A stretch of 64,000 nt of DNA, taken from positions 72,416,001 through 72,480,000 of the forward strand of contig OZ024741.1 of the NCBI GenBank assembly GCA_964016885.1, in the 5' to 3' direction. Position 1 is the stretch's first letter. Every line of letters starts with the position of its first letter. A program made the position numbers and the translations under genes. Below, in pieces: positions 9,880 to 49,376 of this stretch. The notes under the pieces were generated by a model that ran no database searches, was not told the DNA's origin, and saw nothing but the letters and a program-made list of their open reading frames with translations. The DNA comes from Eledone cirrhosa. Taxonomy: Eukaryota.

Positions 9880-10570
9880 TGCAACGGGTCACTTTGTGGT
9901 TCAATGAAGAGTTAATACATAAAATAATCAGAGCTATACATCATAAAACATGTCTATAGAATCACCAGATAAAATATATACCGTTTCCTCTCCCAATTAG
10001 CATAATTAACCATATAAAAAATCAATTAGACCAAGCTATAAGAATAACAGCTCCTATGAAGAAATCTCCGACAAATAACTGAAAGCAGCCCTTCGCGGCG
10101 GTTGCGGCGGAGTATTTATCGAGTATTTCGACAGCGTGTATAAATCGACCAGATATACAGTCAACTAAACAGAATTAGGTGTAAAATAAACTAGAAGGAA
10201 ACTGAACATATTTAGTTACCTCTACCATGGTTTCGTCCGCATTTTAAGATATCCGATAACATTGGAAATCTAGAGCACCGGACTCTTCAGGAGTTAGCTC
10301 AAATTTAGACAATTAATTTTCCAAAGTGATCGCGCCAAGAATACATTCAAAAATGGCTAAATACTAAACGCTATCGAAATACTCGATAAATACTCCGTCG
10401 CAACCGCCGCGAAGGGCTGCTTTCGGTTATTTGTCGGAGATTTCTTCATAAGAGCCTTTATTCTTATAGCTTGGTCTAATTGATTTTTTATATGGTTAAT
10501 TATGCTAATTGGGAGAGGAAACGGTATATATTTTATCTGATGATTCTATAGACATGTTTTATGATACATA
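9880..10570 (-). mobile_element. Fold-back PLE pLTR-like element (arms ~9940-10137 / ~10368-10565)
   Basis: ~200-bp near-perfect inverted arms, HHR in the spacer, microsatellite flanks. Confidence 0.8.
10220..10293 (-). ncRNA. Type I hammerhead ribozyme, long stem II loop
   Basis: Minus strand: ctc CTGAAGA GTCCG..CGGAC GAAA CCATG GTA gag; stems I and II pair, stem III palindromic (ACCATGGT). Confidence 0.85.
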
Positions 10571-10584
10571 TATATGTATATATA

Positions 10585-11200
10585 TTGGACTAAAAACCAT
10601 GATAATCACGCTGAAACTGATGCTATCTACTTAGACTTTGACACAACCTTTGATACCGAACCTCATAAGAGATTTCTATTCAAATTGAAACAAGTAGGAA
10701 CACATGGCAAAATTCTAGGCTGGATTAAGTCATTCCTTCACTTATGTCAACAGTGGGTTGGTTGTATTTCAAAATGGAATATCTTCTTGGAAGGAAGTCA
10801 TCAGTGAGGGTCTTCCAAGGTTCTATCTTAGATCCCATTCTGTTTTCGATATACGTAAATGACATCTCTGATCTAATCATATCCACAACCAAGTTGTTCA
10901 ACGATGATAGCAAGGTATATCATTGTACCATTAGCAGTGATGATTGTATTGTGAATTGTTACAAGATGTGAATTCACTTTCGGTGTTGAGTTCTCTTTAA
11001 TACTGAGAAATGAAATCAGGTGAAGATTAGAGACAAAACGGACTACACGTATACGATAGATGTAGTTTGCCTTGATTAAGTAAATGAATAGAGGTCTAGG
11101 AATACTTGTTTCACAAGATTTATCACCAAAACTGCATATTACTAAAAATGTCATGAAGGCTAAGCAAAGAACAGGTATGATTAAACGCTGCTTTTATCAA
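10585..11200 (+). pseudogene. CR1/L2-group LINE reverse transcriptase fragment, frameshifted
   Basis: DAIYLDF..FD.EPHKR..FKL, GKILGWIKSFL, QGSILDPILFSIYVND, KLFNDDSKVY motifs. Confidence 0.85.
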
Positions 11201-11469
11201 CCTAACTCCTAAAAAGATAACCCTACGTTTCACACTTATCAAAATATGGGCCAAAGTTCAAAAAGGACGTTGAAATACGCCAGTCAGTCCAGGATAGGTG
11301 CCACAACCTAGCTACATGCATCTCTGTCCATCTTTTCTTTTTATCTTCAAAGGTAATTTACTCAATTTATTCGACTATATTATGGCAACATTTCTCAATA
11401 AAAAAGCTAGCATGTTATATTATGGCTATCTTAAGAAGCATTGGGGAAATTCTGGCTCACGGGAGGACA

Positions 11470-11990
11470 GAAATACAAACCTAACCCACATCTTCTTTGT
11501 GTATGACCTGAAACTCTATGCCAAAAACATAAATGGGATGAAGAAAAATCTTGAACTAGTTAGGACGTTTTCAAAGGATATAGGAATGGAGTTTGGCTAG
11601 GATAAATGTTCATATATGATTGTAAAGCAGGTAAAACCTACAAGCCAATCTAGCAACATTTTTAGCAATGGCCTAACTGTTTCACCGATATCCGACGAAG
11701 ACTGCTACAGATACCTGGGGATAGATTAGAATATATCCTATGATGGTATCTGTAACAAGGAACACGTAACCAGGGAATATTACATCAGTTTAAGAAATAT
11801 ATGGTCATCGGATTTCTCTGCGCATAATAAAACAGTGGATCATAATATGTTTGCTATGCCTGTCCTAACTCCAATATTTGGAATAGTCGATTGGACGATA
11901 AACGAAATCCGAACTATTGATGTTTAAACCTGAAAAATTTTAAACAGCACCGGAAACTTCCACATCAACAGTGACAGACACCGCCTTTCT
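11470..11990 (+). pseudogene. R4/Dong-like non-LTR RT fragment
   Basis: THIFFVYDLKLYAKN, FSKDIGMEFG*DKC, YRYLGI motifs with stops. Confidence 0.75.
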
Positions 11991-45610: not shown

Positions 45611-46912
45611 CAGTATGTGGCATAAGTTTGGAAGCAAATAATAATGCTTTTCTTTTGATAACAAAAGTACTAACTTTATTGATCAACAACATATATTTAA
45701 TTTTACAGAAATATCTTTAGAATATAGTTTATTCAAAATGACCCCCTCGTGCAGCAATAGCAGCCTCTAACCTCCGTCGAACATCTTTCACCGAAGCACG
45801 CAACATTTCTTGGGGAATTTCTTTCCAAGCGCTCAGTAAAGATAGCTTTAAATCATCGACTGTCTGATGGACTTTTGAACAGGCTTTTTCTTCAAGGATA
45901 AACCATACTGAAAAGTCCATAGGGTACAAATCAGGCGAACAAGGAGGTCACATTTCTTTTAACCAGAACCTCAGAAGATGGTCTCTGCACCAAGCTTGTG
46001 TGACATTTGCTGTATGGGTGGTGGCTTCATCCTGTTGGAAGGTCCACAGATAATCATTGCTTAAATGATTAGTTGTAGAAGCAAGCATAAACTCCTGAAT
46101 ACTATTTATGTAAGAGTGGGAGCTGACTTTTGTCCTTTCTTCCACAAAAATGAGAGGAGACTTCCAAGATGATGAAACAGCCCCCCAGAGCATAACAGAA
46201 GCTGGTTTCATTGTATGAAATGTAGATGTTTGGTCAACACTGATTGCTGATGTTTTTTTCCAATGACTCGATCATTTCTTTGGTTGTGTATCTGATCTAC
46301 GGTAAAAATCTTTTCATCTGACCAGACACTTTTCCTCGCGATGCCACGTTTCAAATCTTTAAGCAAATTCTTGTTTCTCTCTAGCCATTTTTGTTTTGTC
46401 TTTTCAGAAAGGGTTTGTCTCTTCTGAAGGGTGAAGAAAGACATTCCAAAGTCATCATTGATGATCCTTCTGATTGTCCTAGAGCTTACTTAGACATCTT
46501 TTGCCATTTTTCTCAAGGACCTTTTCGAATTTCTTCTTATCCTTTCTCGAACGGCTTTAATGAGAGTAGGAGTCCGTTTAGTTTGCGGTCTTCCACTTCT
46601 GGATCTATCCGACAAATCTTGCTCTTTAAAACACTTTACAGCTTTCCAAACAGTAGATCATGCAACCGAAAGTAACTTGGCAATATCCGAATATGAGCTC
46701 CGTGCGAATATGAGCTCCGTGCGCGATGAAGTTTGAGTATCATTTCTCAATTAGACGACATTTTAAACTTCTTTAACAAATTCAAACACGGTCCAATATA
46801 TTTAGATAGACTAATGTTTTAACCAGAAAATAAAAGAAGATTAATGATATACTTACAACACTTTTAGAAATCAAATTTCAAAACTTGGCTTCCAAACGTA
46901 TAATCCCCCCTG
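45611..46912 (-). mobile_element. Full-length decayed Tc1/mariner DD37D (maT) transposon
   Basis: WSDEKIFT, FQQD, *PPCSPDLYPMDFSVW with 37 residues between 2nd and 3rd D; TA-flanked TIRs CAG..ata(a/c)gtttggaagc; stops and frameshifts. Confidence 0.9.
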
Positions 46913-47061
46913 TAGGCAAGGCATTTGAGTGGAATTCAAGAAATACATAGTTCGATTCTCTAAGTAACTACTGGGTACTTTTTGTCTGTCACTAAGTGTA
47001 TTTCATCAGATTTTCTAGCGTAGTTATCATTATCTTTCTAGCGACTCTGTTTTTGGTATAT

Positions 47062-47218
47062 ATAAACCGATAAGTTTCAAAAAGCCAGTACAATGCCGTA
47101 GAAATATATAAAGGGCAAATGATAACAAATAGAACAATACAAAGTAATGTTTTACCCAGTATATTTCAATATGATATATTTCTAATGCATTGTACCGGCT
47201 TTTTTGAAACTCATCGGT
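47062..47218. repeat. Short diverged fold-back
   Basis: accgataagtttcaaaaagccagtacaatgc / gcattgtaccggcttttttgaaactcatcggt. Confidence 0.7.
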
Positions 47219-48973
47219 CTTTTGTTACATATCACACAATGCTTCGTATTAACTATACTAATATATATATATATATAAAATTATATGTATGTATAATTAT
47301 ATATATATATATATATATATATATATATATATATATATATATATATATATATATATACATATATACATACACACACGTGAGCACACACACGCACACAGAC
47401 ACACAGAGACACAGAGACACACACACATATATATATATATATGAGGTCATATAATCAAGGAAATAGAGGGAAGTGTGAGGAAATATTAGAATGATTATTT
47501 GGAAGATGAGAAGGTAGAGGAGGTTAGAGAGGAAGTTGCAGAGGTAGGTGCCGCAGTAGATTAATAGGGATGGATGAGAAGAAACACAGAAACGATGGAA
47601 AGATTCACACACACACACACACACGCACACACACACACACACAGACACACACACATACACACACACACGAACACACACACGTATTTATGTCTATCTATCT
47701 ATATATTTATCCATCTATATATGTACGCACACACACGCGCGCACACTTACACGCATATGAATACATATTTGTGTGTGTGTGTGTGTGTGTGTGTATGTAC
47801 AGAGAGACTGAGAGAGAGAGAGAGGCTACAGACATATTATGCATGCACACACACACACACACACACACACACACACACACACACACACACACACACACAC
47901 ACACACACACACACATATATATATATATATATATATGTGTGTGAGTGTGAGCGCGTTTCAGTGTTGGCACACATATATATCGATATCTATATCTATATAT
48001 CTATATATTTATATGCATCTATGTATATATGTACATATATATATATATATATATATATATATATATATATACAGACATATATATACATACAGTATGTATA
48101 TATGTCTGTACATATATATATGTATATATATGTATATATGTCTGTACATATATATATGTGTATATATGTATATATATTTATATATATACACATACAGACA
48201 TATATATATATATATATGTATATATGTCTGTATATATATATATATATATATATATATATATATATATATATGTATATATATATATATATATATATATGTA
48301 TATATATATATATATATATATATATATATGTATATATATATATATATATATATATATATATATATATATATATATATTATATATATACATATATATATAT
48401 ATATACATATATATATATATATGTATGTATATATATATATATATATATATATATATATATATATATATATATATATTATATATATATACATATATATATA
48501 TATATATATATATATATATATATATATATGTATATATAAATATATGTATATATATAATATATATATATATATATATATATATATATATATATATATATAT
48601 ATATATATATATATATATATATATATATATATATACATACATATATATATATATATATATATATGTATATATATATATATATATGTATATATATATATAT
48701 ATATATATACACAGACATATATACATATATATATATATATATGTCTGTATATATATATATATATATATATATATATATTATATATATACATATATATATA
48801 TATATATATATATATATATATATATATATATATATATATATATATATATGTATATATATATGTATATATATGTATATATATATATATATATACATATATA
48901 TATATATATATATATATATATATATATATATATATATATATATATATATATATATATATATATATATATATAT

Positions 48974-49376
48974 ACGATATTAAATAAATGGAAACTATAT
49001 TTATAAAACCATATTTATTTCATTATATATATTTCAGGGATATCATATTAACAATATGCTATGCCTTCCTCAGACAAAATACAATATAAACAGTTTTATA
49101 GATAAATAGATTTGACATACCGTACGGTATGTATAATGTACGGTATGTCAAATCTATTTATCTATAAAACTGTTTATATTGTATTTTGTCTGAGGAAGGC
49201 ATAGCATATTGTTAATATGATATCCCTGAAATATATATAATGAAATAAATATGGTTTTATAAATATAGTTTCCATTTATTTAATATCGTAAATATACTCC
49301 AAATACTTGTCGAGTGCTTTTATATCAGTTATAAATATTTACTAGTTGTAACCCAACAATTTAAATATAACTTTCC
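48974..49376 (+). mobile_element. Near-perfect palindrome (48974-49290) with HHR-like motif in arms + tail
   Basis: ~150-bp arms; CTGAGGA AGG..CCT GAAA TATATA at 49190-49237; stem I poor. Confidence 0.82.

What the first reader, a model, noticed from the sequence alone, without database searches (positions are those of the whole stretch)
9880..49376. Shared polarity: (TA)n - inverted arm - HHR - sense arm - unique tail - (TA)n
In unrelated elements (9880, 12511, 15245, 19605, 31740, 33066, 35105, 48974) one arm abuts the TA tract directly, while the other continues into a ~60-140 bp unmirrored tail. Where a single HHR sits in the spacer (9880, 15245, 19605, 33066) it reads toward the tail. 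The arm/tail boundary is itself TA-like (e.g. tgtgat|attatac at ~19857, atgt|aaaataaag at ~15340). Inference: one insertion mechanism, in which TA-specific nicking or priming acts both on the target and at a TA-like site inside the element, with a template switch making the inverted arm.
Basis: partly seen in the sequence, partly recalled or inferred. Interest (0 to 1): 0.75.

Follow-up and report, generated by a model that had tools for sequence, protein, structure and literature searches.

The report
Penelope insertions primed from both ends
These hairpin-plus-tail repeats in TA microsatellites are the ends of Penelope-like jumping genes in a known layout, and their copies across the genome almost always pair one tailed end with one tail-less end, each stopping at a TA inside the element, which likely means two copying enzymes start on one RNA from both sides of the cut.

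Summary
The layout is real: all eight elements have an inverted tail-less arm and a tailed arm, and all eight arm/tail junctions hold a TA (joint null 1.5e-7). It is the published footprint of Penelope-like elements (PLEs). Two families lead upstream into Hydra-clade RT and GIY-YIG genes; three are tandem units with no PLE gene found. The scan has noted this before on other DNA of this genome.

With tail-free queries, a single hammerhead reads toward the tail 9 times and toward the tail-less end 14 times. A fold-back switch does not fit either: the tail-less arm reaches further upstream in 13 pairs against 14, and 9 of 25 partners are tail only, with no inverted repeat.

What goes beyond the papers I found: 44 of 44 two-ended copies pair one long with one short end; long ends also sit at an element TA (3 of 3 families); and the two arms share variants (104 against about 15 shuffled). 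Best reading, inferred: both target ends prime on one RNA at two fixed UA sites, and the two cDNAs join head to head.

The parts
9817..10567 (-). Two-ended insertion of an about 640-bp tandem hammerhead unit: short end at 10567, hammerhead from 10290, arm 10140-9940, tail 9939-9817 with internal (CA)n(TA)n
12512..13410 (+). Two-ended insertion of an about 1,980-bp tandem unit; hammerhead-like motif in both arms; tail 13271-13410
15245..15497 (-). 3' end of a Hydra-type PLE: hammerhead 15440-15396, tail 15341-15245, 29-bp inverted arm with short end at 15497
   Evidence: (L255, L256 carry EN, L256 also RT)
19604..19934 (+). Two-ended insertion: short end at 19604, hammerhead 19723-19803, tail 19858-19934; no PLE gene found
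31819..32101 (-). Two-ended insertion with shortened tail (31855-31819) that does not touch a TA tract; only the GAAA half of a hammerhead
33067..33757 (-). Two-ended insertion of an about 542-bp tandem unit; hammerhead-like motif about 33394-33322; tail 33148-33067
35081..35687 (-). 3' end of a second Hydra-type PLE: hammerhead 35288-35250, tail 35206-35081, short end at 35687
   Evidence: (L241-L244)
48975..49379 (+). Near-perfect hairpin insertion, hammerheads at 49073-49024 (-) and 49190-49239 (+), tail 49289-49379
17276..17450 (.). Two-ended insertion with no inverted repeat: tail-only piece (17358-17276, -) joined to arm-only piece (17365-17450, +)
14950..15125 (.). Relative of 48974 with no inverted repeat: arm-only piece (15051-14950, -) joined to tail-only piece (15046-15125, +)
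17539..18082 (-). Ninth family (486-bp tandem unit); single hammerhead 17687-17611 reads toward the tail-less end
54751..55225 (.). Second copy of the 33066 family; tailed piece left, tail-less piece right and reaching further upstream
32815..32975 (.). Second copy of the 31740 family, tail left, short end right

Best explanation
These are 5'-truncated insertions of Penelope-like retroelements (two families are the 3' ends of Hydra-type RT/GIY-YIG elements, the others likely non-coding passengers of such enzymes), and each is likely made by two reverse transcriptions, primed by the two cut ends of a (TA)n target at two fixed UA sites on what is likely one RNA. Shown: every family has two fixed 3' ends 60-140 nt apart; two-ended copies pair a long with a short end; both kinds of end overlap the TA tract by 2-7 nt of element sequence; the two pieces are truncated independently and meet head to head, often with a few shared bases; the arms share variants. 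Inferred: the endonuclease nicks both strands of (TA)n; each 3' end pairs with a UA on the RNA; one RT starts at the downstream site (arm plus tail), the other at the upstream site (arm only); both stall at unrelated points and their ends are joined. A small hairpin a few bases behind each site is a candidate for placing the RT. The hammerhead lies upstream of both sites, so it always reads outward, to whichever end kept it.
For: Pairing: 108 of 110 classified divergent pairs are long+short, 2 long+long, 0 short+short (3 are duplicates from overlapping loci, 1 joins two neighbours, 8 more had one unclassified end, and three queries held the whole layout). With tail-free queries, 44 of 44 (115 loci, 71 with no partner found within 1.5 kb). 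Longer stretches: 8 of 17 held a partner for the central copy, all long+short, plus one bystander. Ninth family 6 of 6. Independent truncation: short arm longer 13, long arm longer 14, equal 12, unresolved 1; 9 of 25 partners are tail only. TA: 8 of 8 short ends, 3 of 3 long ends whose continuation is known; 37 of 49 copies in 15 other families against a null of 18%. One source: 104 shared non-consensus variants against about 15 in shuffled pairs, 76 of 87 pairs closer than the family mean. Inversion joints overlap by 2 nt or more in 39 of 71 against 30% in simulated joints. Enzyme link. In vitro, a Poseidon PLE cuts and extends both strands, starts at two internal sites that bound the tail, and is predicted to be a dimer (PMC11167929).
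Against: In that in vitro study the start sites were not homologous to the cut DNA and did not differ between strands, so it does not explain the strict pairing or the TA overlap. Shared variants could come from gene conversion between arms after insertion, or from two transcripts of one locus; 30 arm differences recur in other copies (93 expected). If both RTs copy the same stretch of one RNA, the second must displace the first cDNA; untested. 68 of 115 loci with a classified end showed no partner nearby, so one-ended insertions also occur. Long+long copies exist (2; 10 of 167 islands were symmetric). 17 of 71 joints hold extra bases. Six of eight families have no PLE gene linked. No empty site was found. 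The hairpin is missing in the 31740 family (0 of 10) and matched in only 1 of 5 copies of 35105.
Confidence: 0.62

Rival explanations
1. One reverse transcription from the tail end, then a switch onto the new cDNA (fold-back) makes the inverted arm, which ends at the internal TA.
For: Gives long+short pairing and identical arms without a second RT; the 48974 copies are near-perfect hairpins; 14 of 39 resolved pairs have the tailed piece longer.
Against: The tail-less piece holds sequence absent from the tailed piece in 13 of 39 pairs, up to a whole endonuclease gene (L241, L244); 9 of 25 partners are tail only, as are 17276-17450 and 14950-15125 in the window.
Confidence: 0.08
2. Two-ended priming, but on two separate RNAs or two units of a tandem RNA, with an asymmetric enzyme dimer setting one long and one short start.
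For: Needs no strand displacement; four families occur as tandem units; some arm differences recur elsewhere in the family (30).
Against: Shared variants exclude random pairs of templates; in L256 both arms carry the endonuclease gene over about 1.9 kb, which would need two gene-bearing units.
Confidence: 0.2
3. The short end is set at the DNA level: the endonuclease cuts the element's own cDNA or donor at the internal TA, or self-priming on an antisense RNA makes the inversion.
For: PMC8557442 ascribes the tail to endonuclease resolution; PMC3846280 proposes self-priming on an antisense template; PLE endonuclease cuts AT-rich sites in its own pLTR in vitro (PMC11167929).
Against: PMC11167929 maps genomic ends to RT start sites; inversion points here are scattered, not at fixed palindromes; elements hold many other TA sites that are rarely used.
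Confidence: 0.1

Closest known systems
Complex insertions of endonuclease-bearing PLEs (PMC8557442; PMC3846280)
   Same: Inverted 5'-truncated copy next to a direct copy, partial tandems, tail at only one end, hammerhead near the 3' end.
   Different: Tails are 60-140 nt, not 30-40; the pairing is near strict and both ends sit at an element TA, which the passages I read do not state.
Hydra clade of PLEs, including Hydra-1_Obim of Octopus bimaculoides (PMC8557442, section 11 and supplement rows)
   Same: RWR and DKT motifs, CxCx5C linker, no CCHH, CxxC and CxH around the endonuclease end, hammerhead, (TA)n target.
   Different: The genes seen here are broken and have 1.2-1.5 kb between gene end and arm; no tree was built, and identity with Hydra-1_Obim was not checked.
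Poseidon_Ac in vitro (PMC11167929)
   Same: Two internal RT start sites that bound the tail; both strands cut and extended.
   Different: There the start sites are not homologous to the target and show no strand difference; here they overlap the target by 2-7 nt and are used one per side.
Non-LTR retrozymes (bioRxiv 10.64898/2026.07.22.740005)
   Same: Tandem units with a type-I hammerhead and no gene found (9880, 33066, 17539, 12511), proposed PLE derivatives.
   Different: Here they carry the PLE insertion footprint itself; circles and cleavage were not tested; the 12511 unit is about 2 kb.
L1 twin priming (PMC2837659, listing only; mechanism recalled)
   Same: Two primers on one RNA, head-to-head joint with microhomology.
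   Different: In L1 the second site is variable and the two pieces do not overlap; here both sites are fixed and the pieces usually duplicate each other.

Membership tests
EN+ Penelope-like element | RT gene followed by GIY-YIG endonuclease, upstream of and in sense with the repeat end | tested here: met
   15245 (L256) and 35105 (L242, L243); Pfam GIY-YIG E=0.014 and 0.0005, both below the curated cut-off, RT without a Pfam hit; RT motifs by inspection
EN+ Penelope-like element | The same gene link for the other six families | tested here: not met
   No PLE gene in sense within 1.5 kb in 30 loci each or in 6 longer 12511 stretches; they work like PLE ends but are not shown to be autonomous
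EN+ Penelope-like element | Inverted truncated copy, partial tandems and a tail at one end | tested here: met
   (L243 shows inverted copy, direct repeat, gene, repeat with tail)
EN+ Penelope-like element | Type-I hammerhead in the terminal repeat | tested here: met
   Full descriptor for 15245, 19605, 35105, 48974; with a stem mismatch for 9880, 12511, 33066; not met for 31740
EN+ Penelope-like element | Target-site duplication or empty site | tested here: inconclusive
   Hidden by TA tracts; no empty site for 135 flank pairs or with longer flanks
Hydra clade | RWK motif and DKT in place of DKG | tested here: met
   RWR and DKT in L243 (35105 family); that region was not resolved for 15245
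Hydra clade | CxCx5C linker, no CCHH, CxxC and CxH around the endonuclease end | tested here: met
   L243 and L256
Hydra clade | (TA)n target | tested here: met
Hydra clade | Single ORF, length under 3 kb | tested here: inconclusive
   Copies are frameshifted and interrupted; L243 and L256 span over 4 kb
Hydra clade | Placement in the RT tree | not tested
   No reference proteins in hand
Non-LTR retrozyme | Tandem non-coding units each with a type-I hammerhead | tested here: met
   9880, 33066, 17539, 12511
Non-LTR retrozyme | Self-cleavage and circular RNA | not testable with these tools
   Needs an RNA assay

The most novel reading that the evidence does not exclude
PLEs insert by obligate double priming: a dimeric telomerase-related RT holds one RNA at two hairpin-marked UA sites, each cut end of the (TA)n target pairs with one site, and both subunits copy the same RNA, so the inverted arm and the one-sided tail are the two products of a single reaction, used also by non-coding hammerhead RNAs.
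Probability: 0.4. Interest if true: 0.68.

Novelty: new member of a known kind. Interest (0 to 1): 0.42.

Why it matters
How PLEs make their inverted, one-tailed insertions and why they favour microsatellites is named as open in PMC8557442. The counts here rule against fold-back as the general route and give predictions for the existing in vitro system: one start site per target strand, starts that follow the internal UA, and arms from one RNA. They also show tandem hammerhead units inserted with the PLE footprint, which supports the proposed link between animal retrozymes and PLEs. The layout itself is not new, and the scan has already noted it elsewhere in this genome.

Tried and rejected
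Rfam: no hammerhead at gathering score in the whole window or up to E=10 in 9700-20300; only hairpin and microsatellite noise. The repeat finder was swamped by simple repeats. MITE or DNA transposon reading rejected: 157 of 167 TA-flanked islands with a terminal inverted repeat are asymmetric (not deduplicated) and inversion points are scattered. Empty sites: none real (3 self-matches, output cut). No RNA holder listed. The protein atlas gave no result. An island-based count leaned to hammerheads reading toward the tail (11 against 3 in the four tail-free families; 7 against 5), but both methods need a visible inverted arm and so drop tail-only partners; I take as the fairer count, and it varies by family (15245 3:0, 19605 5:5, 12511 0:3, 35105 1:6). 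Dropped before counts: duplicate loci L090, L104, L106, L112, L170, L210; the 48974 family from the joint-overlap pool because its centre is palindromic; 31740 from hammerhead direction; clusters 15, 22, 26 (query-family artefacts) and 17, 19 (low complexity) from the 15-family count. Whether insertions seed new TA tracts stayed open.
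Full report
Setting. The window lies on contig C2 of a 3.0-Gb genome in 1,796 contigs. Size, contig number and repeat content suggest an octopus; this is my inference from recall, not a call. The window is full of TA tracts and holds PLE gene remnants: a GIY-YIG frame at 13960-14460 (-) and an RT at about 62306-63341 (+).

Observation. Self-comparison finds inverted arms at all eight places, and the junctions printed show one arm stopping at a TA tract and the other running on into a tail. 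Two details need correcting: the 31740 tail is about 37 nt and ends near 31819 without a TA tract, and the 9880 tail passes through an element-borne microsatellite to about 9817. A full type-I hammerhead descriptor finds 7 sites in the window and none in 20 shuffles. The motifs at 9880, 12511 and 33066 have a stem mismatch, 31740 has only half a core, and Rfam finds none.

Copies. I searched the genome with each element and took the 30 best loci (107 to 3,451 first-look candidates, 40 scored each, so these are best hits and not a random sample). Queries for 9880, 33066 and 48974 held the whole layout and are biased; the other five held one arm with spacer and no tail. Every family has two fixed 3' ends. 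Of 110 classified head-to-head pairs, 108 join a long (tailed) with a short end, 2 join two long ends and none two short ends (3 duplicates, 1 mis-pair, 8 further pairs with an unclassified end). In four tail-free families, 44 of 115 loci showed both ends within 1.5 kb and all 44 were long+short. Eight of 17 longer stretches held a distant partner, all long+short, as did 6 of 6 pairs in a ninth family. Independent choice of ends would give half long+short.

TA at the ends. The short end overlaps the TA tract by 2-7 nt that include TA in 8 of 8 families (read by eye; joint null 1.5e-7). Where tandem copies show how the element goes on after the tail (9880, 33066, 12511), the long end does so too (null 0.004). 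A scan of the flanks found 167 TA-bounded islands with a terminal inverted repeat, 157 asymmetric; in 15 families not used as queries, 37 of 49 copies have a TA overlap against 18% at random.

Hammerhead direction. All hammerheads read outward. But a single hammerhead reads toward the tail in 9 and toward the tail-less end in 14 two-ended copies (p=0.40; 20 have both, 1 none). Counts that need a visible inverted arm lean the other way (7:5:3) because they miss copies whose tailed piece is too short to hold an arm.

Template switch. Fold-back on the first cDNA predicts that the tail-less arm lies wholly within the tailed piece. In the tail-free families it reaches further upstream in 13 pairs, less far in 14, equally in 12. 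In 9 of 25 loci centred on a short end the partner is tail only, so there is no inverted repeat; the window has two such cases, 17276-17450 and 14950-15125. The pieces are therefore separate syntheses. Their joints overlap by 2 nt or more in 39 of 71 cases against 30% in simulated joints, and 17 of 71 hold extra bases.

One source. Arms of one insertion share 104 non-consensus variants against about 15 for shuffled pairs, and 76 of 87 pairs are closer than the family mean. This fits one RNA, or transcripts of one locus, or later gene conversion; the three are not separated here.

What the elements are. Upstream of the 35105 and 15245 ends lie, in sense, a GIY-YIG gene and an RT. L243 shows the textbook order (inverted copy, direct repeat, gene, repeat with tail), and L256 is a 6.7-kb inverted insertion with RT and endonuclease. 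The motifs fit the Hydra clade as defined in PMC8557442: RWR, DKT, CxCx5C, no CCHH, CxxC and CxH. I first guessed Neptune; the Hydra lead came from earlier scan notes. Families 9880, 33066, 12511 and 17539 are tandem units of about 640, 542, 1,980 and 486 bp with no PLE gene found. For 19605, 31740 and 48974 no gene was found either.

Hairpin. Earlier notes report a small hairpin behind each end. A pattern RCTC...GAGY starting within 16 nt of the short end is in 65 of 87 query-family copies and 31 of 49 others, against 4.5% at random; it is absent in 31740 and in the CCHH-type family. By eye it also follows the long end in 33066 and 12511, and a variant does in 9880. Its role is untested.

Mechanism. 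Shown: two fixed ends, near-strict pairing, TA overlap at both, independent truncation, shared variants, and an enzyme link for two families. Inferred: nicking of both strands of (TA)n, pairing of each 3' end with a UA on the RNA, two RTs on one RNA, and joining of the stalled cDNAs. PMC11167929 supports two internal starts, two-strand cutting and a predicted dimer, but reports no homology at the starts and no strand difference.

Literature seen. PMC8557442: sections 3, 11 and 15, passages, and supplement rows. PMC11167929: parts 1 and 2 of 4; its supplements were not read and may bear on end pairing. PMC3846280 and PMC4209133: passages. bioRxiv 10.64898/2026.07.22.740005: part 1 of 5 and passages; its supplements are closed. 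PMC2837659: listing only. Six searches gave no paper that states the strict pairing or TA-overlap priming for PLEs; the library lacks many subscription papers, and I did not read Arkhipova 2006.

Verdict. A known class and a known layout in a group where the clade is already recorded, and noted before by this scan. The added value is the set of counts that reject fold-back and the tail-ward hammerhead rule and point to double priming. Interest 0.42.

Noticed in passing
window 13441-14470, 32159-32440, 57891-57955; L078: A different PLE type (C-terminal GIY-YIG with a CX4CxxC linker and two cysteines inside the core, Neptune-like by the motifs in PMC8557442) shows the same short-end/tail layout in TA tracts, with a 36-60-nt tail and no RCTC hairpin or clear hammerhead.
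   Followed up: partly
window 62306-63341 (+): Frameshifted PLE reverse transcriptase remnant (weak Pfam RVT_1).
   Followed up: no
window 15778-15981, 18091-18224, about 20060-20160: Another family: short hairpin plus 80-nt tail with the RCTC...GAGY motif and no hammerhead found in 13 copies (cluster 1).
   Followed up: partly
window 17969-18082: The right piece of the 17539 insertion ends at an internal ATA about 270 nt behind the short site, not at the usual long end; a third start site or a later insertion.
   Followed up: partly
window 15585-15623 and about 35608-35645: Hammerheads of the 35105 group with C in place of U at core position 4 or A in place of G at position 8.
   Followed up: no
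window 12716-13087: The centre of the 12511 element holds a second nested inversion, a sign of more than one joint.
   Followed up: no
window 40437-40676, 55862-56071, 47066-47218: Further inverted repeats beside TA tracts, probably more families of this kind.
   Followed up: no
L254:5347-5444: A TA tract beside an insertion abuts LINE coding sequence that has no TA tract in other copies; insertions may seed or grow TA tracts.
   Followed up: partly
many loci: The flanks beyond the TA tracts are often the ends of other PLE families, so these elements pile up in each other's tracts.
   Followed up: no
window 908-6900, 20300-28800, 49900-50900: Long degenerate trinucleotide arrays (CAC/CAA/CAT types), some in inverted orientation.
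   Followed up: no
L088 (G000:C26): An exon of what looks like an ERG-type potassium channel lies beside a 48974 copy (name recalled from the translation).
   Followed up: no
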